From NCBI GenBank assembly GCA_002441245.1, contig DJVP01000012.1:325504-389503 (forward strand): a DNA stretch of 64,000 nucleotides. The letters run 5' to 3'. Positions 4,241-43,100 of the stretch are shown here, piece after piece (position 1 is the stretch's first letter; each line of letters begins with the position of its first letter). The notes below the pieces were generated by a model. It was not told the DNA's origin. It did no database searches and was given only the letters and a program-made list of their open reading frames with translations. The stretch comes from Candidatus Omnitrophica bacterium UBA6253 (GTDB taxonomy: Bacteria > Omnitrophota > Gorgyraeia > Gygaellales > Profunditerraquicolaceae). A program made the translations under genes and the position numbers.

Positions 4241-4245
4241 TTTAG

Positions 4246-6419: not shown

Positions 6420-6484
6420 CCTTATACTCCTTCCGTTTATCGTGGGGGATTTACCCCTTGGGGATAGATTATAAAAAGACGTAA

Positions 6485-6519
6485 TGTTAAAATTTAACAT
6501 ATTTTAATGCTCTGGTCAA
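6485..6519 (-). promoter_or_regulatory. Candidate sigma70 promoter plus a palindromic operator upstream of the sugar ABC operon.
   Basis: On the minus strand: TTGACC (rc of 6514-6519), 17-nt spacer, then TAAATT (rc of 6491-6496). A perfect 8+8 palindrome ATGTTAAA.TTTAACAT at 6485-6500 overlaps the -10. Confidence 0.4.
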
Positions 6520-6538
6520 GTTCTTTTGTTTGAAAAAA

Positions 6539-7231: not shown

Positions 7232-7257
7232 TTATGCACCTCTCCGCCACTGTCCGG

Positions 7258-7587
7258 TTAATTCACTGGAAGATTATTCTTAACATGTTCGCTTATCCAG
7301 CTTATTGCCGATTCCTCAATCCTGTTAAAAGAAAGCCCATAGATATTCTTTTCATAGGCGTTATCATGCCAGGCTACGTGCGCCCCCATGTCAAATACTA
7401 AACCTTCAGTCAAGGCCAGCCTGAAACTTGAAAAGGCCTCATGAAAAAGGTCCCTGCTTAAAGAAATCTTCATTCCGGAAGTGCTTATATCTTCCACTGT
7501 ACAAGGAATAGAGCTAATGCCACCATCAAAAACCAACCCTGCCTCTTTATCAAGTTGCCACCGTGCTACCTGCCTACGCTCTTGCAT
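7258..7587 (-). CDS. PilZ-domain protein.
   Basis: 109 aa with RRQVARWQL...EDISTSGMKI. SD AAGGAGGGGA lies immediately upstream (rc of 7590-7600). Confidence 0.6.
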   Translation of the reverse strand: MQERRQVARWQLDKEAGLVFDGGISSIPCTVEDISTSGMKISLSRDLFHEAFSSFRLALTEGLVFDMGAHVAWHDNAYEKNIYGLSFNRIEESAISWISEHVKNNLPVN

Positions 7588-7679: not shown

Positions 7680-10160
7680 TTATTTTAAACCTGCTTCCCT
7701 CATTTTTACCATAGCCTTAACCAATACCTGCCTTACTTCTCCTTCTCCAATCTTAAGGCTTCCGGCAATATCTTTAACATCCATACCTGAAACTTCAACA
7801 GCTATTACTATATCTTTCTCCAAGCTGGTAAGCCTGCTAAATGCATCGGCAACTAAATGGTTTCCAAAACTTCCACCTTTTAAATCTATTATGTCTATAA
7901 GCTCATATTCACTCAAGGCAGTTCTATCCGGCAAAACATCCTTTAAGCTAAACCCCGCAGAATTCGATTCTTCATCAATAGACTTCTGCTTAAAAGAAAG
8001 TTTGTTATTTTCTTTTCTCATTTTAACAAAGAACCTATTCAGCTCCTTTCGTACATAATCTTCAAAATCCGTCCTGAGATTAGAATCAATGCCCGCATAT
8101 TCATCCAGGATATCATACATATATAATATGCCTTCTTGGATTAATTCTTCAATATACCCGTTTTGCGGATTAGCATAATGAGCGGCTACTTCCTTTACCA
8201 GCCAGATATAAGCCTCGATAAATATAGTCCTCGCTTCAAAATTACCACATTTTATTTCATCCAAAAGCCCCAATTGCCGACTTTGTTCAAGATGCGTTTT
8301 TTCATTATAATAATCTTTAATGGTAAAAGGCACTCTTTCGGGAAGCTTTTCTTTGGATATGGCGATCCTCTGCAAACAATATTCAATATAATCCTGTGCC
8401 AAAACAACAATTTCATTTAAGGGGTGAGCCAACCGTATAACCTTATTAAATTCTGCAAGTGCGCGCTTATATCTTTTTTTGGAAATATGTTCTTCCGCCC
8501 GGGCGAATCTGGATTCTATCTCTTTAGATTTTTTTATCTCGTCGTAATGCTTAAGATACGCATTGGTAGATTCCAGAATTTCTCCCGCTGCAGGATCGTC
8601 AATAAACTTGTCTTTAAGCCCTCTTGATACATTTTTGAATATTTTAACAGCTTCAATTAATTTATCTTTTGAAAATAAATCTATGCCCAGATCATAAAGT
8701 CCTTTTAAATTAAATAGCCTTTCCTGGCGTGCAGCTTCGATTTTCCAGGCATGCCTGTCAGCCTTAAAAATACTCCGGCAGTGATCAATATAAATCCTGG
8801 CTTCCCGGGCAAGGTTAATTTCTTCAACTATAGGCACTTTTCTTTTACTTTTAATATAGATTATTCTGGAAAATAATCTTTGCGCTTCTTTATATTTAGT
8901 TTGAGCAAACAACTCTTTGGCCTGGGCATAAAGCCTGCGCGGTTCCTCCATCCTGGAATCATTCCTTAGCCTGGACTTAATGAGCATTTCCCGGCGGATG
9001 CTTTTTCTTACATCAATCACTAAGGGTTCATTATCCAAATTAAATATATAGTTACCTTCTCTATCCTTAATGAACTTGAGAAAGGCCGGCTTGCCGGCAA
9101 TAAATTTTGCTTCTACCCTGGCCAGGGGATAAAGATAAAACCAGCCCCAGTAATTCATAAGATTAAATATGCCACGATTATCCAGGCCTATTTCCGAGGC
9201 TATATAATCTAAAACCTGATTGCCAGCACAATCTACCAGTTTATCGTTGCTCCATCTTTCAAAAACATTGAACATCTCGCCTTTAGCGAACGAATCTTCG
9301 GAGCTATCCTTGGCAGCTTTATACATTAAAGACAACCTTTTCGTAGTTAAAATTTTACCATCTTCAAAGACATCTGCCCCTACGATAAAGGCCTTTTTAC
9401 CTGAAGGATTACGGATATCAAAAATATTTACTCTCTTATAGCTATATTTAGGGCCAAAATCTATCCAGTTTTCCCTCCCGCCTATATTTAAAGAGCCGTC
9501 CTTACTTAAAGGATAATTGTGAATTTCGTATCTTTCATTCAACATATTAAATTCTTCTTCAAAACCTAATTCCACAAAAGACATTGTATAGAATTGCTTT
9601 TCTTTATTCCAAATAAGTGAGAATTCAACATCTAAATCTGAATCTAAAGAGGTAACTCTTCTGACCAATCCGTCTATAACCAAAATTTTTACTCTTTCGT
9701 TGGGATTCTTGTAAAACTTTGCCCAGCGTCTTTTATTTTTGGTCATACTGCCGTCAACAAACGGCCTTCCTCCGCCTATCCATAAACCGCCATCCTTATC
9801 CAGGCAGCCATAAACAGTGACATTTTTGAACTGCGCTAATTTATTGCGTTTTATCTTTTCTAAATACACATCTATTGTCTCCTGGGTAAAATTATCTATT
9901 ATCGGAAAAAATTCCTTGGAAGTGTTGTCTTTAGTCAATAAAATTCTCTGCGGGAAGCCACCCTTTATCTCCAGCAAATATCCGGATTTGTCATAAGCAG
10001 TAAACCTCCCCCAATACTTACCCAACATTAATCTTCCCCCGTTAGCCAATACCCCTCTTATAACCACATGGCCTAATTTCTTTAATTCCTCCAAACTAAT
10101 ATTATAAGGCAGATCACTTTTGTTAATAACCGTAAAAGATGAAAAATACGAAAGATGCTC
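7680..10160 (-). other. Module BA (~827 aa): C-terminal module. Beta-rich and helical/TPR-like region followed by a sigma-70-family (group 3/ECF-like) domain at ~7680-8250.
   Basis: Region 2: IFIEAYIWLVKEVAAHYANPQNGYIEELIQEGILYMYDILDEY. Region 4: LTSLEKDIVIAVEVSGMDVKDIAGSLKIGEGEVRQVLVKAMVKMRE. TAA stop at 7682-7680. Confidence 0.55.
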
Positions 10161-13100
10161 CACCGGCGAACTTCCGCTTTTCTTACTTTTAAACTTAATA
10201 ATTTCATAGCTATTATTTCCGGCACTCCTTAGCTCAACTTTTCCGGTTTTATTAACTTGGGCCATTAATACCCCTAATTCATCTTCACTAAGCATATCTT
10301 GCCTGCCTAAAATAACTCTAAAATAAAGTTCTAATTCATTGGCGTTGACCTTGCCCGAAGTTTGCTCTGCTCTTTTAAATAACCATTCGGTAACGCTTTT
10401 CATTTGTATCTTATTAAAACGTTTGCTTCCTAAAGATACCTCTACCGGAGAGCTAGATATATATATCGCTCTGTTTACAGCCAGTTCTTTTTCCATCATC
10501 TCCCAAATCCGGGGATAATACACCGCTTTTGTATATACCTCTGTAGTGAAATCCCCCAACACCCTTTTCAATAAACCGGATTTAATTGGAGGCGAAACTC
10601 GCTTAATTAATTTAATAGCCCCAATTCCGTTTAAATTTTTATTCGCCATAAGTCCGAGCAATAAACTTGTAAATGCACCGGCAGAAAAAGAGGTTGAGCC
10701 GTTTCCATCGATTGCAGCCATCGCAAAATCTCCCGGCAAGGAATCATCATGAAGTTCCTCTCCTGCCCATGATGACAAGGCTCCGACTGAAATCACGCCG
10801 GGGACACAAGAAGGAAATAGATCGTAAAAAATAGTTTCTTCATTTTTTCTGTTTCCGGCGGCGGCAATAAAAATAATATTTCTTTGAATCAAGCGCTCTA
10901 TCAACTTATAACAATCCAAATCCCGCAAAAGATCAAAATCTCCGGCAAAACTCATATTTATCACTAGTTTAGCTACCGGGTATCTATCCTGAAAATTTGC
11001 TATTTTTACCAAAGCCTCTTTAATCAATATCTTATTCATTGTTCTACCATCTAAATCGCCTACATTAACTGCCCATACATCACATATAGTACCCGGTTGC
11101 GTCCAGACGATTTTCAACACTATATCTCCGTGATACCCATAAAAATTATCAAGTACAAAACAAACAATCCGGCTTTTTGCCTCTGGAACAATTTTCTTTA
11201 TATCGTTTGGCTTAAATACAATATAACCACTCACCGGAGAACTGGAACGGCTTTTCGTAATTACCAACTTTAAACTGACAGTCGCGCCCAGCGATCCCCC
11301 GCTTACGTTTGAGATCATCCCGCGTTTGCCTAAAACTGGGCTCGATGACGAGGCTGCCGGCGAACTAAAATCACCGTCATTAATCAACCTAGAAGAACTA
11401 TCCCTTCCAAAAACAGGAGAGTTTCTCAAAAACATCAGCTCCCGCTGTAACCTCGCAGGCGAACTAGCCCTTAGCACTTCCACAGAGGAAGCGCCATTGC
11501 CTATTCTTATCGTTGCTTCTATCCACGCCCCCGGGAGATTATTATCATTTTTGATTGGTTGACTAAACAATGCTTCCCCGCCTTCGGCCTTCTCCAAAGT
11601 TTGAGTAATATTCCTGGTGTGTACCGTAACTTTACCGCCGTAATAACCTACAAAATCTTTCTTTACATAATAAAGCCCAACCCCTAAACTATTACCTCCG
11701 CTCAATTGTTCTTCAAAAGCTTTCTCTATGGGAATAGAAAATCCTTTTCCGGTATCGCACACACAAACATTATATTCTTCAGCTGTTTGCAATATTAAAA
11801 CCAGCATTTTAGTTTTAACGTGCTTGAAATTATGCAACAGGTGGACAAGGATTGATAAACGTATATCAATAACACCGAGCTTATCTGCTGTTTTACCCAT
11901 ATCTTCATTATTTTCTATTAATTCAGCCAATATTACGCCTTTCCCATTGCGTAAGTTTTCCAATGGATAAACACCTTCCAAAACCTGCATTATCAGATTA
12001 CGTTCAATCAGTGGAGAGGAAACCGGGGAGCTGACGCCCATCCCAGATAAAGGCTTTCCTGCCTGCAATTCCAGCATCCTTCTTGTTTCACCGTTGAGGC
12101 TTTTGACTCTTGCGTTTCTTATCTTTATGCCTGCAAAACCTTTAAACGCGTTCTCCAATGATTCAAAATCAAAAAATCGATATGGCATTCCATTAATATT
12201 AAACCGGTCTTTATGCAGGGGAAGTCCCTTGGCGTATTTATCATCGGCTTTTGAATAAACCATCGCAAAAATCTTTCCTCCCCGCTTAAGCACCCGCCAA
12301 GTTTCATCAACAATGCGCGTCATCTTCTCATCATCAAAAGAAATAAAGCTACAGTTAGCAAAAACCGTGTTAAATTCTTCATCCGGAAAGTTGAACGGCT
12401 CTGATAAATCCTGAATACTCGCAACAAGTCTATGCTGAATACCCTGTCTGGCCGCCTCTTGAGATATCCTGCTGATACAAACAGGAGAAATATCGGTAGC
12501 TGTAACAAAACACCCGATATCCCGGGCTAAGATAATCTCATCCTCTCTTCGTCCACAGCCTAAAGAAAGAACCCTATCTCCGTTTTTAAATAAGTTTTTA
12601 TTCAATAGCCGGCCCATAAATTCGCTCTGCGGCAGACTTATGGCCTGCCAAATCTGAGACCAATTATGTACTTGCTGACTCGCTGTAAGTATTCTGTTAT
12701 CCCTTAAGTAAATAGCCCTAGCAAATGCCTGACGTTCCTTTTGTAGTTTAACCGGCGAGCTGACAGTTGCAACAACAGGATACGGCTTAACCTTTTCCGC
12801 AATCAACCCCATCGCCCCGAGATAGCCTTTAGGGGCAAATATAAAATCATTGACTTGATACCCCCTTAACTCAAAAAGTTTTTTGACTCTCTGAAATTCT
12901 TCTTGATGAGGTGCTTCTATAGACATGCTCAAATACCCGGTATTAATAACTAAATCAAAAGCTCCATCTTCATTAATTATCTCTAATGAATCCCTATTAG
13001 CAGTACCATAATGCCTCCACGGCCCCATATTCAACAATCCGATTAAATTCCCGCTACCACGGAATTTCTGTAAAAAGTTGCTAATCAGCTCTTTTTGACT

Positions 13101-16100
13101 CAAATTTGCATTAAGAATATAAAAATCATCATCTTCTATCCACCCATGTTCTTCCAATATAACTCTTGCGAAACTTACGTTTCGGGAATTATTTTCTATT
13201 AAAATAACCCTGCGTGCCCCCAGGGAAAGTGCTATACAAGAAAGAACACTTGTCCCGGCCCCAAAGTCAACAACAATTGCGTTTTTAAACATTTCTTCTC
13301 TTGCCAGTATCGAGGCAATAGTGGAAACTGTAAAATCATTCAACGGCTGACCAGGCTGGGCTGACCAGGGAGAAATAAAGAAAATGAAATCGGAATGCTT
13401 GATATAAAGATCACCGAGCTTATCTTTATACTGTCTGGCCAATGCCCTCGCCTTCCGAGAAACCGACTCCTGAGACCACCCATAACTATCTGACAAAAGA
13501 ACAATAAATATCATCCGGCCTAACCTGTACATACTTCTGGTAAAATTTCTTTTAAAATTATAATCCTTATCGCCTATCTGTATTTTCCGGTTTCCTTCCA
13601 GGGGGAATCTTGAAAGAAGTTTTTCAATATCCCTGGACACTTGAGCCATCCTTTCCTCAGAAACTATCTCCATATCAGCAGGTACTGTTACCGCCCCAGG
13701 AAGGACAGTAGGAGTATGCGGTGAGATGGATAACCGGCTATGGATATCATCAATAGCCCTTTTAACCAACCGCTCATTTTCCTGCTTAATTCTTATTTCC
13801 AACTCCACGATATCATCCTTAGCTTTCTTTAATGCTGCGATTTTTATGTAAAGATCGCCGCTAAACTCTGGATGGAATCTATTCATTGGTTCCATAATAC
13901 GGTTAAAACTTCTTGCGATATCGCGGGCAACCCCCTTTGCAGACCTTACCACTGGTGAACTGGAGCACACTCCCGCTGCCGCTGCCTGACGCTCATAATC
14001 CGCTTCTTCTTGCGCCAAATTCCGAGTCAATTTGGGCCAAGAAAAACCGCCAACTTTATTAAGGTAAAATGAAACTGTCCGCTCCGGGAAATAACGCACG
14101 ACCGCCCCATGAAGAATGCTAACTTCGGAAAGACCCGCCCTAGTAATGAATAAAATATGCATTTGTTTGGCGAAACAATACAAACTAAAACCTTTACCCA
14201 AAAGTTTTCTTCCGTCGCTCGATAATCCGCCAAAATCCCTGTTCCAATCTTCATACTGGCAGCCAACTCCCAGGGCCAATTTGATATGCGCGCTACTCTG
14301 TTTCGGCACCGCCACATGAAAAATACAACGATCATTATGATAAAAACAGTGCCAATCGTGCCAATCGCTGTTAAAATGCCTCCTCCACTCGATCCCGTGA
14401 CCGACTTGCCCCGGAGATGCCGCGTTTAGCTCAATCCCGGTGACGGCTCCGGAGCCAAAATAAAACAGGAGTTTTTCAAAAGAAGTCAAGGGCTTGGCCA
14501 GATGTTCAAAATCTTTCAGCCGCGCCAGATCGTCTTTGCCAACGTTTCCCAAAATACGCTGCGCTCCATCGAACGCCTTAGACAAACCCAAGGTAGCCCT
14601 ATCAACTACCGTCTTGCGGAAAACCAACAAATGTGCCAGATCGATCTCTGGCGATGTGCGGCCCCTAAACTCAACATCTTCCGAGAGCCTTTTTCCAAAA
14701 ATTTCCTGGAATAAGTTGAGACGCTGAAATAAACCCACCGGAGCCCGTTCTTTAAATTCAGAAACGAACGCCCTTTGATCAAAGACAGGATACAAACTCC
14801 ACATTTTATGAATAGGGCTGGAACAAAGACCATAACGCGCTATAAATTCATCCTTCTTAATCTGCTGTTCAAAAAGATACTCTTCTATACTCCAGGCTGT
14901 TACGCCATCGTCAAAAACATCCCACCGCATATCCCTATGCCCTAAAGTCCTGATTTTGGCCAAGGTTGACTCGTTCCTTAATTCAGGATCATTCTGCAGT
15001 AATCTCTTAATTCCAAAAACCCTTAATTCATGGCCAAGGCCTACAAAACGGCGGGCTTCTAATTCAGGCAGCCTATTCCAAGGTGATATCTCCATGACTG
15101 CATAGCGGATATTCTGATATAAACTCGAGAAACCAACATCCAAATCAACCCAACCTTCTATTTCTAGTTTTTCATTATCAAAAGACAGGGCTAAATATAG
15201 TTGGCCTAAGCCTTCTGACTGCCACTCAAGAAAATCCCTGTAAGCTATTACATCCGAAATATGCTCTGTCTCAGGCTTTCCGTCAAACGATATCCATCTA
15301 TTAAAACTATTTGCCGCAGATAATTTCATAGCAGCATTTAATGATTTTGCCATTACCACCGGTAATTCCACCATAACCTTTCCGGCATGATTATGGCCAA
15401 GGACCACTACCTTGCCTTCCAAACCAATACCGCCATAAATCTGCGATTGAATGGTTTCTTTTACCGGTGAACTGGAACGCAGCTTAAGCGGTAAAGATGA
15501 ATAAGCTGGCTCAACATTTTTATAATAGCGCGCTAGCGTCGCCAGGGTAATATCGTCTTTTTCATTCCTGGCTTTCTTTTCCATATCTTCTAATATTTCT
15601 CCTCTGGTTTTCAAAATACCTCTTGAAACCAAACTCTCTATTCTTTTCTCCATTTCAGCGATTAATTCATCAATGGTTAAATAACCTCTTATCAACCCAT
15701 TCCGCCTGGCGGCCTGCAAAAGAGGAAGAAAATCAGTATTTTCCGAAACCTCGATATCAAGCTTTAATGCCAGACAGGATTTTTTAACTAAACCCCATAA
15801 AGAACTATAAGATGACCTACCCTGTATATCCATAATCTCGGCAAGGCTCTTACCGCAAGCCAATAACCTCAATATCTGCAGCTTGGCTAAACCAAATTTC
15901 TCCTGCTGTACCTTAGCCTGCAAAACAGATAAATCAAGTTCTTTAGGAATCTGGCCCATGCCCTGTAATGATTTTATTAAAACCAGGGATGTAGCGAATG
16001 GCTTTTTATGGCTCCCATTTTTTAACGTTATATTAATATTTTGTTTTCCTGCTCTTTTCTTGATATATGCCGGGCCGCATAAAACATCGCTCCTTGCTAT

Positions 16101-19100
16101 GCCAAGTTCATGATTAATTTCTTCAAAAGAAAGCCCTTTGGCTCTTAGCTTTAACGCGTTTATCTGCACATTTGAAAGGAATATTACCGCATTACGCGCA
16201 GAAGCGAACAACTTCATTTCTACCGCCCGCTTCAGGATTTTCTCAACAACTGCCGGGCCAAAACCCTTATCATCAATGCCAAACTTCCTTTTAATCCCGC
16301 GGATATGCCTCTTATTTGCATCCACCTTCACATATCTACTGCTTGCAATATCCCTGGATCTTACCTTTCCTTCCCGCATGAAGGCTAAAATATCTTTCTC
16401 CGCATCAGTTAACGGATTAACCAAAATATCAGGATAGATCTGCCTTGTTTTTTCTATTAATTGCGGCCAGGACTTCCTAATTTTACGTTCCAAACCAAAA
16501 GCATCAAGTATGGAATAAACGATTATTCTTACCGTTCCCTGATGGCTTAAATTTAAGGCACTGCCTATCACTTTATAAGGCTCCCGTTGGCACAAAAGTT
16601 TCAAGGTGACCAATTGACGCTGGTTAAATAACGGTTCAGCAACATATGCGCCCACCGGCGAGCTACTTGTAAATTCCCGGTTGATTTCAAGATATGCTTC
16701 CGGTTTCAAAGGAGTGAAATAAACAGGCCCGTAATAATCGTCTCCCCTAGTCCACCAGACTCCTTTTAACCCAGGTCCATAGGCATTGGAGTATTCTGGG
16801 CGGTTTCCTGCCTGGAGTACGGCCCTTACCAACTCTTGCGCAGGAATTTCAACATAACGCTCCAACCACCTTGGCCAATCATACTCAGAATCAGGAGGCT
16901 CTTGATGAACCAAATCTTTGATCCGAGACGTTTCATCTATTGAAGGAATATCTTTTGCATGTAATGAAGCGCAATAACCTGAACCTAAAAGTGAATTAAG
17001 TATAGTTCCCGGAAAACTATCATTAAACTCTGGCACATTGGGATACCCTTTCAATAGTTCATCTTGCGCCAAGAATGCCACTCGTACAGCTTCATCAACA
17101 AGGTTGTAATATCTGTCTCCACCATCTCTTCCTAGGGAAGACAAACTATTTGTTCTATCAGGGCCGTATGTTTTAGGAAGACCGATAATATCGCAATTCA
17201 ACCAGCCCTGCCAAACAATAGCATCGAAATCATAACCCCTGCTTCTTTCCTGGGGCTGCATTAAGTCTTCGAAGAATATTTTAATCATTCCTGCCAATTT
17301 ACGGCTCTGGAGATTGGTAAAACGGACTGAATGACCCAAGCGTAAGGCCTCTAACCGCAGAAATTCAAGCACACTCAAACCTATTCCTTTATATTCACCC
17401 TTCCCTCTGCTGTTAAGGGTATATATCACGGGTATGCTTATCTCTTTATATTCTGGATCTATTACTATATTCACGCGGTTACCTCTATGGAACTGGCCAT
17501 TAAAACCTATAGAATATAATAAATCAATTTTCTCTTCCCCTTTAGGCTCTCCATCTAAAACTAATTCAATGCCTATATTGTGATCCAATATATTCCTAAA
17601 TGATATTTTGCTTTCTCCTAAAGCGCCGGCCACATTAATATCAACCGGCGAACTACTCTTTTTTTCAATTGTTCCTGGATCTAATGCCGCAGCGGCTTTT
17701 TTGATAGATAGAAATACATCCAGCATGTAAAAATTACTCTCATATAAAACTTTCATGTCTATAGGATACGCAACCGCCTTGCTTATTCCCGGAAACGGAA
17801 AAATATGTACGCGCATGTTGTCAAACCAGCTTCTCTGCTGGTCTTTAACTGTGTAATTATCGCTATCGATAATCTTTACATCTAAATCGGTTTCTGATGT
17901 TATCGGCCACGGCTCACAAGACATGAATCTTTTAAGAATACCTCCATAGATATAGCAAGGAGGCAATAAACGGCCTTTCTGCTCATACAAACCTTTAACC
18001 TCTCTCAATACTATTTTCAGGTTAGTATTTAACAACCAGAGGGATTGCAAGAATTCATCAGATATACCGCCAGGCACCCTTGCACGATACTCTATCATTA
18101 TTTCTTGCGGGATAACTGGATCCTGAGGTACAGAGCTGTCTGGTAATGGGCTTGAGACAGATAACGGCAAGGCGGCAATAGCCATCTCCTTAAAGGTATC
18201 GTTACTTAAAAATGCGGGGTGCGCTACAGGCGAACTGGAAAGGTGCAATTTTATGCCTTCCTTGCGGTAGACTCCCACAAGGCGATTAACAACAGGCTGA
18301 AGAACTATAAATTCCCCTTTGCCATTCTTGTCAAAAGTAACGTTCCCCGGATTTTGCTCAAATTCCCTGGAAAGAAAACTGTGCCCGCTCTTAGTAATAA
18401 AAACACCCTCTCCGCTACCCATAGCCTCCTTGAATGTACGAACAGGTTTTTCTTCCAGCAGGTCTCGATAAACCAGGTAATATAGCCCCCAAAGCCCTTG
18501 CTTAAATAACTCAAACCAGCAAGGAGACAGGTCTTTCTTTATGGCTGGGAATTTCCCGCAGATTCTCGGCTTATCCCTGTCTTGGTATATTTTGCAGGAA
18601 GAAACGAATGTAAGGCCGGTGCTATTTGAGAAATCCAGGATTATCTGCAGCGCCCAACAGGGAAACCCTGAAACAAGATTAGATTGACCTATAATCGAAT
18701 AGCGCTGTTTAGGCTTGAGGTCGCCGATTGCAAAATACTCTCTTGTATATGGGCAATCTTTGCCATATTTTCTTCTAAGCACCTTTTTGATTTCTTCCGG
18801 AATCCATTCATCCCTAAAAAAACAACAGGCGGCGTCAACACATAAAAATCTCCTTCCCGGCATACTTCGAAACATCACCGGAATATCCTTTCCTGCCGGC
18901 GAACTGCTATACAGGCGCAACCTGATTACCGTTCCCTTATTATATTCACTATCAATCTCAAGTTCGCTTTCAATACCAAAAACATCCTCTATGCTGTTTA
19001 GATTACGTATACCTACTCCGGGGCTGCCTTTTTTGACAAAATCACCAGCGAGTATGGCTTCCACATCATCCATGCCGCTTCCATGGTCTATAGAAGTTAC

Positions 19101-34100: not shown

Positions 34101-37100
34101 CGCAAAAGAAAATTCTGCACCGATTTCAAATATTGCTTCATTTTTCTGTATCTTAAACAAAAGGCCGCTATTCATTCTAATGCCGTTGTTTTTAATACGC
34201 TCTAACTCGCGCCCTATGAGCTTTTCATTAAACAAAGCTGTATATTGGGAAAGTTTTCTTTCTTCGTAAGATAAAAATCCCTCTCTAATAGCAATCAAGA
34301 ATCTCAGGTTGCTAAGAGAATCTGCCTGAATCGCTGTTGCAATGTAACTGCTCAATCTATCCAGAAAAGCAGGAGGAAAATGGCTGGATAATAGCTTCTC
34401 TACCAGATATTCTAAACAATCGAGGTCCCTGCTTAATATTAAAAGTTCTATATCCGGCATTTTGGTTGATTTTTCCTTTTTTCTGTTCTTATTTTTTTGC
34501 TTAGCTCCACTATCGCCTTTTAACGCAGAGAGGTATTGCTCCAATTCCTGCTTCTTGCTTTCAAGAGCAGATTTCCAATCCCCTATAGGCATCCCTGCTC
34601 CAAGCGTAAAAAACGCCCGTAATAAATCCTCTTCTTTTGCCTGAAGATATATGTCTCTTATCAAATTAATAATTCCCTCCTGGCCCTGGAAATTGTTCCC
34701 AAGAAAGGCAAGAAATTCTTTTCTTTTTCTTTCTTCCAGCCCAAGGAGGCTTCGAAATAAATCAGCGATTTGCCTTTTGTCCGAAACAAGTACCGCGCAG
34801 ATAATTTGGCTTATTTTCTGCTGCTGGCCCATGTCAAAATAGCCGCTTGCTGTCTTAAGGAGAAACTTCAGGGCGTCTTCAGCCAAATCAAATCTTGCGG
34901 CTAACAAGCATATATTTACATAATCAACAACCAGCCTCACATGCTGTTTTTCAATACGGCCCTTAGCCCCCTCCATATCTATTCCAGCTATCCTGAAGAT
35001 CTCCCCATAACCTGCGCTTATATTCAGGAATATCCCAGATTTATCCAAGACCCTGCGGAATGCCGTCAGCGGAAGGATTATCCTGTTTCTTATATCATCA
35101 ACCATGCCTTCAAGCTCTTTCTTGGATGCCTTGGAATAAAAAAGCACCTCTTTCCGCAGGGTTGCTATGTCTTCGTTAGCATATAAATCATATGCCATGG
35201 TATGCCCTTCATGGACTAAAGCGACATTAAAATATGTATTCAAAAGATGAAATTCAAAATCTTCTTTAGGGATAGATGCAAGCAATCTTTCTACTGCAAT
35301 CCTGTATTTGGCTATTTTGCTCCCTTGCTCTATACTCATAAATATTATTTTTATATAACAGTTTGCGACTTTCTTTGATATATCAGCAATTATATCTTCT
35401 CCCAACAAAGGCTCTGCTTTTAATAAAGACTTTTTGGCTTTAATATACGCCTCTGCTGCCTGTTCTGCAGCCAAAAGCGCTCCCGGAGCGTTATTATCCC
35501 TCAAAACTATGCTTATATCGTAATGCGCCTCGCAGGCCATCCATATATTCCTGAAATAAAACTGCTGTCCTTTGAGGGCCTTTAATAACGTTGCACTGGG
35601 GATAAGCGAATAGAGGCGGTCCAGGTAGGGAGTGGAGATCGCTTCTCCATTATTGCCTAAGAAAGAAATTATTTTCTTAAGAATATCCCTGCCTGCCGAT
35701 AAGTAATCAATATCCTGCTTAATTTGCCCCTCGTTATAAAGATAAGCTGCAACGCTGTGAAGCGTAAAAAGCACTCTTTCTTCCTGGCCGGGTACATTGC
35801 TTATTAGAAGCTTAAACTGTTCGACATCTTTATTATGCCCGGGCTCAAACTTGAATGTTTTAGCCGCGATATCCGTAAGAACATCTGCCCCTAAGCTTGA
35901 AAGGCCCCCTATATCTTCCGAGGCAAAATAAACAAGAAAATCCAGAAAAGCGCTTCTGTATGAGTTTATGTCCTGGAAATTCCTGGGTGTTATTGCGGAG
36001 AGCTTATTTTGTATTTCATCTCCGTAAACAGGGCTTGAAATAGCTTTTTCATAAATCCGTGTTTCCGCTGCCTCCGGCTCAACAGTTTGATAATACCTGT
36101 TGATTGCAGCCAGTGTGATTTCGTCTTTTTCGCCTGATAAAGCCTCGGCCTTTATTTCATCCAAAACCTCAGATCTGGTCTTTAAAATATCGTCTTTATC
36201 CAGCAAACCCTCAATCCGCTTTTCTATCTCTAAGACTAACTCATCAATACTTAAACAACCGCTTATCAAGCCTTCTTGCTTGGCCTTCCTTAAAAGAGGA
36301 AGGAAATCAGCTTTTTCAGAAACTTTCATATCCACTCCCAACGCTATGGAGGACTTCTTTATTAAATCCCACAGGGAGCTGTATGAAGCCCTTCCCTGCT
36401 CTATTATAATCTCAGGCAGGCCCTTTCCGCAGGCTAAGAGCTTTAATGCCTCTATCTTGGAAAAACCGAATTTTTCCTGTTTAACTTTCTGCTGCAAACC
36501 GGATAATTCCAAATCCTTATCTAATTGCCCTTTAGACTGTAATGATTTAATTAATTTAAGGGAGGTTGCGTACGGCTTAGTTTGATTTCCTTTCTCAAGT
36601 ACTATCTTAATCCCCATTTTTCCAGCTCGCCTCTTGATATACGCAGGCCCGCATATTATGTCGCTCCTTGATATTTCCAACCTACTGTTAATCTCTTCAA
36701 AGGCCAGCCCCTGCGCCCTTAACAATAACGCCTGTATCTGCAGATGGGAAAGAAATACCGGATTCTTTTGCGGCAAAGAATGCAGTTTTTGCTCAGCAGC
36801 CCTTAGGATTTTTGCGGCAACTCCCGGGCCAAACCCTTTCTCCTGAATCCCCAATTTTCTCTTGATACCGCTGATATGCCTCTTGTTCGCATCTGTATGA
36901 ACGCGCCTGGATACGGCGATATCCCGGGATCTTGCCTTGCCTTTCTGCATCAATGCCAGGATATCTTTTTCCGTGTCGGTTAAAGGATTAACCTCGATGT
37001 CGGGATAAATCTGCCTTGCTTTTTCTATTAATTGAGCACGCACCTTCTTAATATTATGCTCTAAACCAAAGGCATCGAGTATAGAATGCACAATCTTTTT

Positions 37101-40100
37101 TACTGTGCCTTGATGGCTCAGGTGCAAAATACTGCCTATTCCTTTATAGGATTCGTTCTGGCACAAAAGCTTTAAGGCAATAAGCTGCCGATCGTTAAGT
37201 TCGCATGATTCCCCTGGCATTAATTTCTCCTGCCCGGCCAGCTTAATCTTTACAACCGGGCTGGATGCCTTTTCTTGATCGCTTAATCTGCTTATCGGCA
37301 GGGGTAAACCGACAACCGTGCATTTTTCCCGGCCATCCCAGTCTTCAAATCCAGGGCTTAATCCTCTATTACCCTCGGGGACCACCTTTAAATCGATAAA
37401 ATATTTCCGGATCAATCTGCGCAAATAATCCCTTCCTTTGCGCAATTCCAGGATATAGACAAAAGTAACTGTCCAATTCATGCGCAATGCCTCCCGGTGT
37501 AAAAAATCAAATATTGTTGAACCAATACCAATATATTCCCGGCCGATACGGCCATAACGGGTTTCTATAGACACTATTTCTATATTCTCAACCTGATAAT
37601 CCAGGCATGCCAGAAGCCCGTTTCCTCTGATAAAAATAAAATCCCCCTTGCTGGTAATATTTTCAAACCCTAAGTCGTAGAAAAGTTGCTTTCTGATTAA
37701 GGACTCCCTGGGCCTTAAATCATACTTATAATAATCAGGCACCTTCAACTCTATGCTTAATGAAGGTTTAAGTATATTCCTTAAAAATATGACATCCTGG
37801 CCCAATTCCTCTTTAGTATCATAAACCGGGCTGCTGCTAAATGCCCCGCCGGAAAGAAACTTTTGCTCCCCACCAGCCACGGAAGGTAAAGCAAAATCAC
37901 TATCATCTTTCCAACGGGGCATAACAATTCCTTTTTCTTTTAATATCCGCGCCAAAATCAGCTTGCCTCTTTCAATTCTTTGCCTGATTCCTTCCCTGCC
38001 AATATCCCACCTTGCAAAGCCTTCATCTTTCAGCGCTTTCTTTATCTCATTAGCCTTCCCGGAGTGCTGGCCCATCAGGATACTTAAAACAGCAAGAAAT
38101 AAATCTTCTGCCTTGCTGATATCCTTCCCCTTATACTCTTTATATCTGCCGATAATATATGCGATTATTTCTTTTTTCTCTAAACGCTCCAGAGGATTCT
38201 CTGTTTTATTATCCGCAAACATATCCAGGAGGGTAAGTCCATCGCTATCATCACCAACCGGGGTATCTATTGATAAGCCCTCTATACGTATTGCCTCAAT
38301 TTCATCCGCAATTAATTTTTTTATGGATTCATCGGGAAACCAATTATAAAGAAGTGTGGAAAGCCTGAACCCCTTATCAGGATCGTATAACGCTACTACA
38401 TCACGCATATTGGAAAAATCCAGAATTGCCCTGTTGGTGTAGAAAATATTCTCCAATAACCTTCCGTATAAATCCAAATATCCTTTATACTGGCTTTTTA
38501 TTATCTTTTGGATACGGAATATTATTATTTTCATTCCTATAATTGCCAGTATTTCGCGGGCTGCCGCGTTCCCATTAAGGCATTCCCGGCCTAATACCCC
38601 CTCTTCTTCTCTTGTCGGCCATCTATAGCCGTCATACATACTACTGATCCCGGAGCCATTTTCATTATCATAATTGACATAATTTATACCCTTTAAATCC
38701 GGAAGAGAACGAAAATCACTATATTTTGCTTCCCATTTTCTCTCAAACGGCTTTCTTCCCATTCTTTTCTTACCATTACCATTCTCTTCTTTGCTTGAGC
38801 TATTATCATTTTGGCCATAAAGATTAACAAATACGCCATAAAGCAATCTTACTTCTTCTAAATCCAGTGCCTTTTCCACATTCAGCTTAGCGAATATGCT
38901 CTTCTCCAACCGTAAATCGGGTGAGCCTGATTTTACCTGGCTAAGCAAATCTAATTCTTCCCTGCTTAAGCTTTTAATGTTTTCTTTAAACTGGATGAAT
39001 AGATATTTAACTCCGGGCAGATACCCTTTATCTATCGCGTATTGGATGCTGCATAACCTTAACCCTTCTTCCAACTCCATAGCTGTATTAATAATATCTT
39101 TTTCGGATATTTCACCGTCTTTAAGCGCGAACATTATGATTTCGGATATATTCTTGCCTTTTTTATCAATACCCATGGCGCCACATATAAAAAGATTATA
39201 CCTGCGGATTGAATCAGCGCCTTCTTTTATCTTTAACAGCCTGCAAGCCATATCCCTGTCAGCAACCAGAGCCTGGATTAATAATGCCTGCTTAAGTTTC
39301 AGGCTGAGCTTTTTCCTTTCGAACATAAATTTAAATCTCTTGAATTCTCCCGCGTCATACTCGATATAGCCTTTTTCCGCGGCACTTACCACACATTGCA
39401 CCAATGTCTGGTAACGCGGTTCAAGAAATTTCGGAATATCTAAAATACTCCTAATCTCACCGACCCTCTCCCTCACAGTAATAAATGATTGGCCTAAGCA
39501 AGCAGCAATATCCTTATATGATATCCGCTTATTTTCTAAGCCTGCTTTTATAGCTGTCTCCAGCAATTTTATCTGGGTCTTAAGCAAAGGATTCGATTCT
39601 TTAACTTTTCTTGCCTCTTCCTGCGCAGGCTGTTTAGCAACCGATTCATTTCTTTGTAAAATATAAATTACCTCAGCTAACTTATCCCTGCTGATTATTC
39701 CTCCCTGCCTGTTAACCAGTTCATATTCCTGCTTATATACTTCCATAAAAATAGGCAATAGTTTGCCGTAATTGCGGGAGGTGCCTAATTTTTTAGTTAC
39801 CCAATACAGCCTGTTACGTAATACCGGCTTGCTACCGATTTCCTTTCCTGCTTCTTTTAAAGGCCTGCCGCTTAGGATATCTTCCGCGATTACCCCCAGC
39901 GTCATTAACTCCATCTCGGTGAGCCATTCCGCGCCTCTTTTGGACGCCCTATAGACATATTCCTTGATCTGGCTAAGATGGATATAGTGGGGGAAGCTTT
40001 CAAAATAACGCTCACTATCCTTATACGCCGCAATTATCAAAGGAGCGACCTGCCCTCTTTTTTTGTCTACACCCAATTTAACGGTGATACTGGTTAGCAA

Positions 40101-43100
40101 TCTCTTAAGGGAACCAAAACCTACATTCAATTCCCTGCAAATATCTTCGTTTGATTTTCCCAAAACAAGCAACACTAAAACTGTTACTTCCCTATCATCA
40201 AGCTTATTAGCGCAAGGAGATGAACTTAAGGAAGAATCGAAACCGGCCAAATGATTTTTTAGCTCGCCTAAATTCTCAATAACAAAATCAAAAGGCTCGA
40301 CTCCATCAAATAGCGCTTTGGCTTTCTCCAACTTACTTTCTTTTTCTTCGGCCGCGGCGAACATCGCCAACCGCACACCCTCAACAGCCTTCCTCAACGT
40401 AACGATTACTTTTGGAGCATCATCCACTATTAAAACTTCTTCTGCAGAGAATCCATTAGCCCTTATTATTTGAACCATTTCATCTATCTTAACCTTTATC
40501 GTGTCAGATTTTTTATTCTGCCGCTTAAGAAGAAACCTTGCTTCTTTAAAATATTTATTTAATCCGGAATATTTCAGTATATTTCTTTTTTCATAGCCTC
40601 CGGCAGAAACTATATAAAGGGGTAAAACCTGGCTTAGTCTTTCAACTGTTTCCTTGGCACCCGGAGTCAATAAAGAAACGGCTCGAGTTTTCAATATATT
40701 TTTTAACTGGCTGTCTCTTAATTCTTCATAGTCTTTGATATATTCCATAACAGGCTTGGCTTCTATTTTACCGCGCTGTCTGATAAGTCCGGATACCTCC
40801 GGCAATGTTTCCCTGGTAGGCGTACCTAAAACCCTCTTAAAAAATTCATTTATCCATGGCTCAAGCCAAAGAATATCTTTAAGTTCAAATCCGGCTTCCT
40901 TGAACATTTTATAAATTATCTGCCTGAGCACATCACGGCAAACAGGTATTGTATCCGCAATCACGCCGTCAAAATCAAATATAATTGCTTTAATTCCATC
41001 AGGTGAAGGAGAAACCGCTTTCTTCTCATTTGAAAAAAATACCGGCGAACTGGAGTGAAACATCGATGAAGCGCCCGATAAGTTAACACCATCCCTATTG
41101 TCGTTTAAAATTGATTTTGCCTTCTGGTAAAGATTGCTTATCAGGGAGTCACCGACGCTTTCATTATTCCGCAAGAAATCCGAGGATAGCCAGCCTACTT
41201 GTTCATTTTGGGAAGAAAAACTGTCCAATATGCCACGCACATAATATTCTAGATCTATAAAAATACCTGTATTCTCAATTTCCAATACATTTGTTAGTAA
41301 CTTCGACAATCTAATCCGCATGCTTTTTTCACAATTAAGATAACGGGCTGCGACGGATAACGGCAATCCTAAATCGCATTCTCTTTTTAAAACGGCCTGA
41401 CGGCGGGATTCTTCATCCCTGTTTACATACCATACTCCATCTAATATTTTCCCGACTTTTAGTTGGAACAGGTTGGCTGAATCTATAAAAATAGGCTTGC
41501 GGCTCCCATTATTAGAATCATGCAAAACCTTCAGTATCTGTTCATAAACCAAATGCCTTCTAGGTAAACAAGAAATGCGTATATAAAACCAATACAACAG
41601 AGGTGACAATGAAAAAATGTATTTTAACCTATTTATAATAATATTTTTCACGCAGCTTGAAAAATCGCCATAGACTACAGAACAGCCTTCTTTTTCTATA
41701 ATCCCGGAAACAGTGGTTTTCCCCACCCCCATAAATCCCGTAATGCCTATAAATTGAACTCCCAATTTTTCCTTTAAAGCAACAATCTCTTGAATCGTTT
41801 TCCTGCGACTCAATATTCTCAACGGCGAGCTGGCGGCTTGATAATTAACCATGCTTATTCCCCCTTCACAAACCTTGTATTCATGAAGAATACGCAGTAC
41901 CTCTGCTACGCTCCAGGCCTGCGAAGAAGTCCCTCCCGGATATTGAGGAACGGACAGACCAATCTCTCCGCCATTAAATACCTCGTCTATTGAGCCATGC
42001 GTAAAAAGCCTAAGAAGCAATTTCTCTGTTTTAAAACGCACCTCTTCTTTAATCTTTTCTTCCGCTACGCCTTGCCATCGTCTGACTCGCACCAATAAAT
42101 CTATCTCAGGACCGATAAGAAACGGCCAAGCTGTACCCTGGTGATAAGCAAAATCCTTGTGTTTACCAAAATCAACTGAATCTGGCCCTGGCTGACTGTT
42201 AGTATCATAGTGCGAATGGTAGTTGGAATCGCGTGGAGATAATGTTCGCGGGCCATAAGACGTACTTAAATCCTTCATGCAGGCATCTAACACCTGAGCC
42301 TGCTCCTCCATAGGTAAAATATCCGGTGCCACGCTCAAAGCAATAAGTTGGTTCGGCCGCAAAGCAGCTCCATGATTGGCGCTATCCGGTGTCCCATCCG
42401 GACCAATGACATCAAACAAACAATTTTCCCTCTCATCTAGCTCTCCGGGATTTTTTAAATGGTTGTTCCAAAATTTATCCCTGAAATTACTTTTTACCTT
42501 TTCTGCAAGTTCTTTCCAGTTCGGCTCATTCTTTTCCGGTTGCAGCCCGAATTCTTCCATTGCTTTAGCCAACCAGCGAAGGTTGGAATACCATAATCCT
42601 TGAATCTCTACGCACTTACCGTTACGCGGAGTTACGGGTAAGGTATGCTCCGGGATAGCGTCCATCCAAGTGCTCTGCGCAGGGCTAATGATTAACCCAT
42701 CTTCTTTATCAGCATAAATGCTTTGCCGCTGACCGTTGCGGTCATGATACCCTGTACCATTATAATAACCTAACATGACCCGGCGGATTACAGGCAGCAT
42801 TTGTTTAATGGTTTCGAAATCCCCCGTATAATCCAAATATTTATGTGCCATAACATAAACAAACCACATAGAGCCATCCACTGTGTTATACTCCGGATTA
42901 GCCGGGTCAATGATGCGGTTAGGGATCAAGCCATCGCGTTCGAATCTGCTAAAACTTTCGAGAAGCGCCCGTGCTTCAGGATGAAGCCATTTCTGCAGTA
43001 ATAAGCAACCGGTATAACTGATAAAAGTATCCCTTCCCCATTGCTCAAAGAACCAATCGCGGCTGGCGGCCCAAATTTGAGGTACTCCATTAAATGACTT

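What the first reader, a model, noticed from the sequence alone, without database searches (positions are those of the whole stretch)
7680..40211. Transcription and stress regulators encoded inside the polyprotein: at least three sigma-70-family domains, two anti-sigma/HK-like ATPases, Rel/SpoT, and four LuxR-HTH arrays.
Sigma-70 region 2/4 signatures occur at the C-terminus (7680-8250), in module Q (about 37840-38700) and more weakly in module V (31485-32615). HATPase_c modules are at 11471-12008 and 18909-19541. Rel/SpoT is at 48481-49946. Sigma factors must be stoichiometric and free to bind RNAP. Encoding them inside an 18,000-aa precursor alongside their likely antagonists is hard to rationalise unless the precursor is cut. 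Co-translational coupling of a sigma, an anti-sigma-like kinase and (p)ppGpp metabolism would be a novel regulatory logic.
Basis: partly seen in the sequence, partly recalled or inferred. Interest (0 to 1): 0.7.

Follow-up and report, generated by a model that had tools for sequence, protein, structure and literature searches.

The report
Sigma-like regulators inside Omnitrophota giant gene
The window holds most of a giant gene (over 18,752 codons) from an Omnitrophota bacterium whose protein is a chain of about 50 protein-sized modules joined by a repeated Ser-Ser-Ser-Pro-Val junction; three of the modules are very diverged sigma factors, and others are LuxR-type DNA binders, two kinase-like ATPases and a RelA/SpoT-like unit, which the papers I could search on these giant genes do not mention.

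Summary
One open frame on the minus strand (7680 to the window end, at least 18,752 aa, cut at its 5' end) contains exactly three sigma-70-family modules:
- C-terminal module (7692-8237): passes the NCBIfam sigma-70 cut-off.
- Module V (31524-32492): family profile hits only sigma factors in PDB, E=4.5e-10, and the AlphaFold model matches only sigma chains.
- Module Q (37869-38618): weaker, and lacks sigma region 3.

It also holds four LuxR-type HTH arrays, two sub-threshold GHKL ATPase modules and an RSH module whose hydrolase motifs are degenerate.

Homologues are fragments of giant proteins from Candidatus Omnitrophota MAGs. This is therefore the published multi-enzyme class of Omnitrophota giant genes. 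The papers I could search do not mention sigma or LuxR modules.

The modules are separated by a strict [S]SSP[V/I/L] junction. There are 52 copies against about 3 expected, none lies inside a recognised domain, and the codons vary between copies. Relatives swap modules exactly at these junctions.

I read the gene as a chain of independent cassettes, probably cut at the junctions (inferred, not shown). Nothing supports a coupled sigma / anti-sigma / (p)ppGpp circuit.

Verdict: new variant of a known kind, moderately interesting.

The parts
7680..64000 (-). Giant ORF, at least 18,752 codons, open to the window edge (5'-truncated)
   Evidence: Pfam and NCBIfam tiling
7692..8237 (-). C-terminal sigma-70-family module (sigma2 + sigma4), aa 18568-18749
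   Evidence: TIGR02937 47.9 bits against cut-off 42.9; Sigma70_r4 above GA; best PDB hit FliA, E=4e-4; dN/dS 0.32 against L003
7683..10163 (-). Last junction-delimited unit (aa 17926-18752): unknown region + TPR + sigma
   Evidence: Last SSP at aa 17923; TPR at aa 18477-18504
10455..11234 (-). S8 subtilase-like module, aa 17569-17828, flanked by SSSP junctions
   Evidence: Peptidase_S8 20.6 bits against GA 21.8, E=3e-4; motifs read by eye; replaced by other modules in L003
11466..12011 (-). GHKL ATPase-like module 1, aa 17310-17491
   Evidence: HATPase_c 23.5 bits, E=8e-5; G1/G2 boxes by eye; conserved in L003
16251..16424 (-). LuxR-type HTH 4, aa 15839-15896
   Evidence: In-protein HMM; lies in the block paralogous to that of HTH 2, 57-68% identical overall; not detected by Pfam
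18906..19544 (-). GHKL ATPase-like module 2, aa 14799-15011; ends 2 aa before an SSSP junction
   Evidence: HATPase_c 25.3 bits, E=2e-5; HATPase_c_2 E=0.004; SpoIIAB E=0.0017; N/G1/G2 boxes by eye
30336..30413 (-). Only strong transmembrane-helix candidate in the window part, aa 11176-11201
   Evidence: Kyte-Doolittle scan
31482..33920 (-). Junction-delimited unit B (aa 10007-10819): LuxR-HTH array + helical middle + sigma-like V
   Evidence: SSP sites at 10004 and 10820; paralogous to unit A, 28% identity
31524..32492 (-). Sigma-like module V (sigma2-sigma3-sigma4), aa 10483-10805
   Evidence: family member P0013 passes Pfam Sigma70_r2 GA
33150..33326 (-). LuxR-type HTH 3, aa 10205-10263
   Evidence: GerE 37.5 bits, above GA; extra HTH at aa 10293-10343 (TIGR03541, E=1e-5)
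36822..36995 (-). LuxR-type HTH 2, aa 8982-9039
   Evidence: GerE 24.0 bits against GA 23.5
37836..40214 (-). Junction-delimited unit A (aa 7909-8701): LuxR-HTH array + helical middle + sigma-like Q
   Evidence: SSP sites at 7906 and 8702
37869..38618 (-). Sigma-like module Q (sigma2, region 3.2, putative sigma4; no sigma3), aa 8441-8690
40038..40214 (-). LuxR-type HTH 1, aa 7909-7967
   Evidence: GerE 24.8 bits against GA 23.5
48480..49949 (-). RSH module (HD - synthetase - TGS-like), aa 4664-5153
   Evidence: HD_4 36.1 bits; RelA_SpoT 21.6 bits; TIGR00691 E=1e-20; 87 long-RSH homologues; motif alignment

Best explanation
The window is the 3' 56 kb of an Omnitrophota giant gene of the 'multi-enzyme' type. 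Its product is a chain of about 50 protein-sized cassettes joined by a conserved pentapeptide, [S]-S-S-P-[V/I/L].

- Three sigma-70-family domains, each at the C-terminal end of a junction-delimited unit of about 800 aa. Two follow arrays of LuxR-type HTHs. One follows a TPR region.
- Two GHKL ATPase modules.
- One RSH module with a decayed hydrolase site.

Most likely (inferred, not shown) the cassettes act independently of their neighbours and are released by proteolysis at the junctions. The sigma-like units would then work as free HTH-sigma proteins of about 90 kDa, not as parts of an 18,000-aa chain. They are not wired into a dedicated sigma / anti-sigma / (p)ppGpp circuit. They are simply some of many cytoplasm-type proteins that this lineage encodes in polyprotein form.
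For: Shown:
- Domain identities.
- Omnitrophota origin of every named homologue except one labelled only '[bacterium]'.
- Domain content matches the published module lists: MTase, HATPase, GNAT, HAD, HD, GT5, ROK, radical SAM.
- Junction motif: 52 SSP and 29 SSSP against about 3 and 0.2 expected. Both AGY and TCN serine codons are used, so it is selected at protein level.
- 0 of 52 junctions lie inside recognised domains, P=6e-7.
- The motif occurs 2.3-2.7 times per 1000 aa in family members against 0.03 in ordinary proteins.
- Homology blocks between the window and a relative about 85% identical break exactly at junctions.
- In three other metagenomes unit B keeps its junctions (-474 to -480 and +342 to +344 from the sigma start), but a different module follows in each.
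- The reading frame is under purifying selection, dN/dS 0.27.

Supporting cleavage (inference):
- An S8-like protease cassette is present.
- There is a lone TM helix with modules on both sides that use ATP, SAM, acetyl-CoA or DNA.
- The junction region of the V model is disordered.
- There are no systematic internal ribosome-binding sites.
Against: - No cleavage product is shown.
- No protease of known SSSP/V specificity is identified.
- The S8-like cassette is below the Pfam threshold, has an odd Asp-His spacing, and is absent at that position in the closest relative.
- A 2,541-aa stretch (aa 1609-4150) holding five enzyme domains has no junction at all, so not every domain could be released.
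- No relative was found with a sigma-like module as a stand-alone gene.
- The sigma-like domains are very diverged. V lacks the Trp dyad of region 2.3-2.4 (alignment), and sigma4 of the C-terminal copy has dN/dS 0.64. Sigma function itself is unproven.
Confidence: 0.5

Rival explanations
1. Unprocessed megaprotein. The chain stays intact and the HTH, sigma-like, GHKL and RSH modules act in cis. They might tether the enzyme chain to DNA or RNA polymerase, or sense signals that tune neighbouring enzyme modules. The SSSP[V] junction would then be a structural or post-translationally modified linker, not a cut site.
For: - Published views treat these as single giant membrane-anchored proteins, and peptides of one such protein were detected.
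- Some multi-domain stretches lack junctions.
- No stand-alone versions of the sigma-like modules exist in 1.84 billion representatives.
- The cis protease is not conserved.
Against: - A strict pentapeptide repeated about 50 times with unconserved flanks looks like a recognition site rather than a passive linker.
- Module order is not conserved, which argues against specific neighbour-to-neighbour regulation.
- One TM helix would place cytoplasm-type modules on both sides of the membrane.
Confidence: 0.3
2. Relics or exapted folds. The sigma-like, GHKL and RSH modules no longer do their ancestral jobs and persist as scaffolding or binding surfaces in a fast-evolving protein.
For: - Sub-threshold Pfam scores.
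- RSH hydrolase HD changed to HK, ED to SE, RLHN to KFIS; synthetase ExQIRT changed to ExQIYS.
- V lacks the Trp dyad.
- sigma4 dN/dS is 0.64.
- The Q family lacks sigma3.
Against: - The families are conserved across several genomes with invariant motifs (A2 and A3).
- sigma2 of the C-terminal copy has dN/dS 0.16 and keeps the LIQEG core-binding motif.
- The V model folds as a complete sigma2-3-4.
Confidence: 0.13
3. One reading: a dedicated circuit in which sigma, an anti-sigma kinase and (p)ppGpp metabolism are coupled co-translationally in fixed stoichiometry.
For: All three kinds of module lie in one ORF. GHKL module 2 has an N-box resembling SpoIIAB/RsbW (EELLTNIWRHA) and weak SpoIIAB and HATPase_c_2 hits.
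Against: - The SpoIIAB hit scores 18 bits against a cut-off of 135.
- No STAS or PP2C partner appears in any scan.
- The modules are 2,000-10,000 aa apart among sugar, methyl-transfer and radical-SAM enzymes.
- Neighbours of the sigma unit differ between genomes.
Confidence: 0.05
4. Artefact: an assembly chimera, or an operon of separate genes misread as one ORF.
For: One public assembly (L002) splits the ORF.
Against: - That split comes from a 1-nt homopolymer insertion next to an N-containing patch.
- 56 kb without a stop in one frame cannot be chance.
- L001 is 100% identical over 14.3 kb.
- Homologous open frames occur in four other assemblies.
- dN/dS is 0.27.
Confidence: 0.02

Closest known systems
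Omnitrophota giant genes: 'Archaeovorin' type (West-Roberts et al. 2023, 10.1101/2023.11.21.568195) and 'multi-enzyme metabolic cluster' class (Nielsen & Lui 2026, 10.64898/2026.06.07.730766)
   Same: ORF longer than 10 kAA. Homologues come from Candidatus Omnitrophota MAGs. Same domain repertoire: GT5 starch synthase, methyltransferases, HATPase_c, GNAT, HAD, HD, ROK, radical SAM, TPR, S8 peptidase. Fast evolution. Proteolysis has already been proposed for this class.
   Different: Neither paper's main text mentions sigma-70, LuxR/GerE or other HTH modules, or a recurrent junction peptide. Their domain catalogues and supplements could not be read here. The window part has one TM candidate, not many. 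The published reading is extracellular or cell-wall-degrading, but these modules are cytoplasm-type.
Sigma-70 family factors: group 1-3 for module V, sigma28/ECF-like two-domain factors for the C-terminal module
   Same: sigma2 and sigma4 (plus sigma3 in V) are recognisable by profile and by predicted fold. The C-terminal copy keeps the LIQEG motif of region 2.2.
   Different: These are embedded in a giant ORF, fused to LuxR-HTH arrays or TPR. Sequence identity to known sigmas is below 20%. V lacks the Trp dyad. Q lacks sigma3. The Q and V families occur only in giant proteins: 17 hits in 1.84 billion representatives.
Viral and retroelement polyproteins (for example picornavirus, potyvirus)
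   Same: Many unrelated functional proteins in one frame, a short conserved peptide at each boundary, and a protease-like module in the chain.
   Different: This is a cellular bacterial gene. Cleavage is unproven. The junction sequence SSSP[V/I/L] matches no protease specificity I know of (from my own knowledge, not tested).
Long RSH enzymes (Rel/SpoT/RelA)
   Same: Collinear HD - synthetase - TGS-like arrangement, 22-26% identity to 87 long RSH proteins.
   Different: No ACT/RRM C-terminal region. Hydrolase catalytic motifs are replaced, as in RelA pseudo-hydrolases. The synthetase ExQIRT motif is changed to ExQIYS.
SpoIIAB/RsbW anti-sigma serine kinases
   Same: Small GHKL module with an E-x-x-x-N-x-x-x-H type N-box, and G1 and G2 boxes.
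   Different: Scores are far below family cut-offs. No STAS antagonist or PP2C phosphatase was found. It is not adjacent to any sigma-like module.

Membership tests
Sigma-70 family (C-terminal module) | sigma2 plus sigma4 domains collinear with the family profile | tested here: met
   TIGR02937 47.9 bits against cut-off 42.9, profile 1-164/165; Sigma70_r4 26.5 bits against GA 24.1
Sigma-70 family (C-terminal module) | Binds core RNA polymerase and directs promoter-specific initiation | not testable with these tools
   The LIQEG motif is present, which is only suggestive
Sigma-70 family (module V) | sigma2-sigma3-sigma4 homology by sequence profile and by fold | tested here: met
   Family profile against PDB: 40/40 sigma factors, E=4.5e-10. 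Foldseek: all 50 listed hits are sigma chains. Family member P0013 passes the Pfam Sigma70_r2 GA. The window copy alone is below Pfam thresholds
Sigma-70 family (module V) | Conserved aromatic residues of region 2.3-2.4 (Trp dyad) for -10 element melting | tested here: not met
   In the alignment to SigA, TWWIRQAI is replaced by an inserted, Trp-less segment
Sigma-70 family (module Q) | sigma2 and sigma4 homology | tested here: inconclusive
   All top hits are sigma factors, but only short pieces match (regions 2.3-2.4 and 3.2), E=4e-6 to 7e-5. sigma3 is absent. sigma4 is seen by eye only
LuxR/GerE HTH | Pfam GerE at or above the gathering score | tested here: met
   Three of four copies: 24.8, 24.0 and 37.5 bits against GA 23.5. 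The fourth was recovered by an in-protein HMM and lies in a paralogous block 57-68% identical overall
GHKL / HATPase_c | Pfam HATPase_c at or above the gathering score, with N, G1 and G2 boxes | tested here: inconclusive
   25.3 and 23.5 bits against GA 26.4, E about 1e-5 to 1e-4. Boxes seen by eye. The structure model was unusable, pLDDT 38
SpoIIAB/RsbW anti-sigma kinase partner-switching system | Family-level score, plus STAS antagonist and PP2C phosphatase partners | tested here: not met
   TIGR01925 18.3 bits against cut-off 135. No STAS or SpoIIE/PP2C hit in any scan
RSH (RelA/SpoT homologue) | HD domain plus synthetase domain, collinear | tested here: met
   HD_4 36.1 bits against GA 27.2. 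TIGR00691 E=1e-20. NF008303 profile 25-344/702. 87 RSH homologues. Pfam RelA_SpoT alone is below GA (21.6 against 27)
RSH (RelA/SpoT homologue) | Catalytic His-Asp and Glu-Asp motifs of an active hydrolase | tested here: not met
   HD changed to HK, ED to SE, RLHN to KFIS in the alignment with 7 long RSH proteins
Omnitrophota multi-enzyme giant proteins | ORF longer than 10 kAA, many distinct enzyme Pfams, Omnitrophota origin | tested here: met
   At least 18,752 aa. More than 20 distinct Pfam families. Homologues are named Candidatus Omnitrophota. The one GTDB representative MAG is labelled 'uncultured Planctomycetales bacterium'
Omnitrophota multi-enzyme giant proteins | Transmembrane helices or signal peptide (94% of the published catalogue) | tested here: inconclusive
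   One strong TM candidate in 18,752 aa by a crude hydropathy scan. The N-terminus lies outside the window
Proteolytically processed polyprotein | Conserved boundary peptide at module junctions | tested here: met
Proteolytically processed polyprotein | Demonstrated cleavage and a cognate protease | not testable with these tools
   Only an S8-like cassette below threshold

The most novel reading that the evidence does not exclude
These giant genes are true cellular polyproteins. An ultra-small bacterium would make dozens of ordinary cytoplasmic proteins, including its own lineage-specific HTH-sigma factors, from one reading frame, and release them by cleavage at SSSP|V junctions. New cassettes would be gained, lost or swapped at those junctions. 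Regulators and enzymes would then be produced in fixed 1:1 amounts by proteolysis, not by separate translation starts.
Probability: 0.3. Interest if true: 0.85.

Novelty: new variant of a known kind. Interest (0 to 1): 0.6.

Why it matters
Giant Omnitrophota genes are known but not understood. The prevailing reading is a membrane-anchored, largely extracellular coat or cell-wall-degrading protein. Three points from this window bear on that:
- Three sigma-family modules, LuxR-type DNA binders and an RSH module are cytoplasm-type, DNA- or RNAP-directed parts. They are hard to fit to the extracellular reading.
- The strict junction peptide turns the open question 'one protein or many?' into a concrete test: look for peptide termini at SSSP/V, or mutate the junction.
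- If the sigma-like units do bind RNA polymerase, they would be new sigma subfamilies with N-terminal LuxR-HTH arrays, found only inside giant genes.

Tried and rejected
- Word-indexed homologue searches with module V and with the C-terminal 233 aa returned nothing.
- Single-sequence phmmer against PDB was uninformative for the C-terminal region and for both GHKL modules.
- The single-sequence AlphaFold model of GHKL module 2 had pLDDT 38, so I did not take it to fold search.
- I looked for internal Shine-Dalgarno sites plus start codons before the regulator modules. Only 19 scattered sites turned up in 18,752 codons, none systematic, so internal initiation is not supported.
- I looked for a stand-alone gene version of the sigma-like modules. 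None appears among the 17 representative hits or in 3 metagenome loci.
- The junction as a DNA-level repeat is rejected: codons differ, including AGY against TCN serine. GTG/ATG restart after the junction is rejected: mostly GTA, GTT or ATT.
- The split ORF in assembly L002 is an artefact with an N.
- Three antisense ORFs of identical length (161 aa) are unrelated Ser/Leu-rich shadows.
- The three sigma-like modules are not recent duplicates of each other: no pairwise similarity.
- Kizina et al. 2022 (PMC9004380) is not held in the library.

Full report
**What is in the window.** A single minus-strand ORF runs from 7680 to 63938 (18,752 codons). Its frame has no stop up to base 64000. Its first recognisable domain is only the C-terminal half of a PRK/uridine-kinase fold. 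The gene therefore continues beyond the window. Downstream on the same strand lie two PilZ genes, a sugar ABC transporter (binding protein and two permeases) and a GH2-like hydrolase.

**Domain content.** Pfam and NCBIfam tiling shows a long series of unrelated enzyme domains:
- DUF4922/Ap4A-phosphorylase-like, mannose-6-phosphate isomerase, ribulose-phosphate 3-epimerase, carbamoyltransferase
- ROK kinase, beta-phosphoglucomutase-type HAD, GT5 starch synthase, GH77, glycogen debranching enzyme, a second HAD
- CofD/YvcK, several SAM methyltransferases, a B12/radical-SAM enzyme, GNAT

**The ORF is real.**
- A JGI metagenome contig is 100% identical over 14.3 kb.
- A second assembly splits the ORF only because of a 1-nt homopolymer insertion next to an N-containing patch.
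- A GTDB representative MAG carries a homologous frame, 77-86% identical in protein. It is open over 3,993 codons to the contig end.
- dN/dS between the two is 0.27.

**Checking the regulators: sigma modules.**
- C-terminal module, aa 18568-18749 (7692-8237). It matches the NCBIfam sigma-70 family model end to end and above its curated cut-off: 47.9 against 42.9 bits, E=1e-12, profile 1-164/165. Its HTH passes the Pfam Sigma70_r4 threshold. Its best solved relative is FliA. It keeps an ELIQEG motif like region 2.2.
- Module V, aa 10483-10805. Pfam barely sees it (Sigma70_r3, E=0.05). In NCBIfam, 9 of its 11 hits are sigma families (E=3e-5). A full HMMER search of 1.84 billion representatives with units A and B found only 17 proteins. 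From these I built a 6-member family alignment (A2). Its profile hits 40 of 40 sigma factors in PDB, best SigA E=4.5e-10, over regions 1.2/2 to 3.2. One member passes Pfam Sigma70_r2. The AlphaFold model (pLDDT 72.6) returns sigma chains of RNAP holoenzymes (or, in one entry, a model) as all 50 listed Foldseek hits, aligned over about 320 columns, which covers sigma2, sigma3 and sigma4.
- Module Q, aa 8441-8690. This is the weakest. It has no Pfam hit. It has 10/10 sigma families in NCBIfam (E=4e-6). Its family profile's top PDB hits are all sigma factors (E=6.7e-5), but the match covers only regions 2.3-2.4 and 3.2. The sigma3 domain is missing.
- Tiled NCBIfam scans give sigma hits in these three places only.
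- The three modules are not similar to each other.

**Checking the regulators: the rest.**
- LuxR-type HTHs lie at aa 7909-7967, 8982-9039, 10205-10263 and 15839-15896. Three pass the Pfam GerE threshold. The fourth was recovered by an in-protein HMM and lies in a block paralogous to that of the second, 57-68% identical overall. Weaker HTH copies sit beside them, so 'arrays' is a fair word.
- The two GHKL modules score just under the Pfam threshold: 25.3 and 23.5 bits against 26.4, E=2e-5 and 8e-5. They show N, G1 and G2 boxes by eye. The 'anti-sigma' label rests on SpoIIAB at 18 bits against a cut-off of 135.
- The RSH module (aa 4664-5153) is real. HD_4 is above threshold, TIGR00691 gives E=1e-20, and 87 long RSH proteins match at 22-26% identity. 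Its hydrolase motifs are replaced (HD to HK, ED to SE, RLHN to KFIS). The synthetase keeps RxK, Asp and ExQI but has YS for RT. A TGS-like tail follows, and there is no ACT region.

**Whose gene is this.** The named homologues of units A and B are partial proteins of 'Candidatus Omnitrophota bacterium' MAGs, apart from one labelled only '[bacterium]'. The domain list matches the 'multi-enzyme metabolic cluster' class and the two big co-occurrence modules described for Omnitrophota long proteins: methyltransferase, HATPase, GNAT, HAD and HD in one; GT5, ROK and radical SAM in the other. It also matches the 'Archaeovorin' type. Those papers, and Seymour et al. 2023, read such proteins mainly as membrane-anchored, extracellular or cell-wall-degrading. 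One already suggests that C39 or S8 peptidase domains might cut them. None mentions sigma, LuxR, GerE or HTH modules in its main text. The domain catalogues and supplements were not available to me.

**The junction peptide.** This came up while checking the 'must be cut' argument.
- The protein contains 52 'SSP' and 29 'SSSP' tripeptides or tetrapeptides, against about 3.2 and 0.2 expected.
- The conserved unit is [S/V/A]-S-S-P-[V/I/L/A/M], with no conservation in the flanks. The median spacing is 243 aa.
- Codons differ between copies, including both AGY and TCN serine codons. It is therefore kept at protein level.
- None of the 52 sites lies inside a recognised domain, although domains cover 24% of the length (P=6e-7). 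Many sites sit within 2-30 residues of a domain edge.
- The motif occurs 2.3-2.7 times per 1000 aa in the window protein and 20 family fragments, against 0.03 in 87 ordinary RSH proteins. It is absent from the five neighbouring genes.
- Homology blocks between the window and the MAG L003 begin and end at junctions (aa 16155, 16660, 17492, 17833). Other modules occupy the gaps.
- In L003 the sigma module itself is followed by 'VASSPIL' and a 50-aa tail.
- In three further metagenome loci, unit B keeps its junctions at -474 to -480 and +342 to +344 from the sigma start. A different module follows in each genome.
- All three sigma-like domains form the C-terminal end of junction-delimited units of about 800 aa (793, 813 and 827 aa).
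- I found no paper that mentions this motif in Omnitrophota.

**How it most likely works.**
- Shown: the regulators are genuine, conserved and highly diverged cassettes in a modular giant ORF. The cassettes are bounded by a selected peptide and are reshuffled between genomes.
- Inferred: the cassettes work independently of their neighbours and are probably released by cleavage at the junction.
- Support for cleavage is indirect. The motif has the character of a recognition site. An S8-like cassette is present (20.6 bits against 21.8, E=3e-4, with AAGN and GSTSFSAG motifs). There is a single strong TM helix (aa 11176-11201). If inserted in an intact chain, it would put modules that use ATP, SAM, acetyl-CoA or DNA on both sides of the membrane. 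The junction end of the V model is disordered.
- Evidence against cleavage: none is shown. The S8-like cassette has an odd Asp-His spacing and is replaced in L003. A 2,541-aa stretch has no junction. No stand-alone sigma-like gene exists.
- I put about 0.5 on this reading, 0.3 on an intact megaprotein with regulators acting in cis, and about 0.13 on relic folds.
The modules are thousands of residues apart, their neighbours vary, no STAS or PP2C partner exists, and the anti-sigma call is very weak.

**Novelty and score.** The giant-gene class is known, and so is the idea that it may be cut. Three things appear new: the three sigma-family modules, two of which define families seen only inside giant proteins; their fusion to LuxR-HTH arrays; and the junction peptide with module exchange at junctions. 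I rate it a new variant of a known kind, interest 0.6.

Noticed in passing
whole ORF 7680-64000 (-); e.g. aa 8701 = 37833-37838, aa 15011 = 18903-18908: A strict junction pentapeptide [S]SSP[V/I/L/A/M] recurs 52 times (about 3 expected) between modules. It is never inside a recognised domain, its codons vary, and it is about 70-fold enriched across the whole protein family. It is a candidate processing or recognition site and is not mentioned in the papers I could search.
   Followed up: yes
63938-64000 (-): The giant reading frame has no stop up to the window edge, and the first domain is a half PRK/uridine kinase. The gene is 5'-truncated by the window, and the GTG at 63938 is not its start.
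   Followed up: yes
L003 1-11983 against window 7680-17657; L004-L006: Relatives share modules in blocks that break exactly at the junctions. Modules are inserted, lost or replaced there. Four different modules follow the sigma-V unit in four genomes.
   Followed up: partly
10455-11234 (-): An S8 subtilase-like cassette (just below the Pfam threshold) is flanked by junctions. In the close relative L003 it is replaced by a GNAT-like module and one with an HxH...SxxD pattern, possibly a JAB/MPN-like metalloprotease (read by eye only).
   Followed up: partly
30336-30413 (-): The only strong transmembrane-helix candidate in 18,752 aa sits in a small 163-aa junction-delimited module between cytoplasm-type modules.
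   Followed up: partly
36027-37838 and 15462-17657 (-): Two internal paralogous blocks (aa 8701-9304 and 15428-16159, 57-68% identical) each carry a LuxR-type HTH. This is the only recent internal duplication in the ORF.
   Followed up: partly
L003 11804-11983: In the relative, the C-terminal sigma module is followed by a junction (VASSPIL) and a 50-aa tail. In the window a stop codon follows directly.
   Followed up: no
1119-7587 (-): Downstream genes: two PilZ (c-di-GMP receptor) proteins, a sugar ABC transporter (binding protein and two permeases) and a TPR + GH2-like hydrolase. They are conserved in the same order in L003.
   Followed up: partly
L002 4603-4683 (window about 11818-11895): One public assembly splits the giant ORF. 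The cause is an extra A in an A-run plus an N-containing patch, which is an assembly artefact.
   Followed up: yes
L003 (CAYRUB010000017.1): The GTDB representative MAG carrying the closest homologue is labelled 'uncultured Planctomycetales bacterium', while the other named homologues are labelled Candidatus Omnitrophota (one only '[bacterium]'). The label may be wrong.
   Followed up: no
19810-20295, 31810-32295, 36100-36585 (+): Three antisense ORFs have exactly 161 codons each. They are unrelated Ser/Leu-rich shadows of the coding strand, so this is coincidence.
   Followed up: yes
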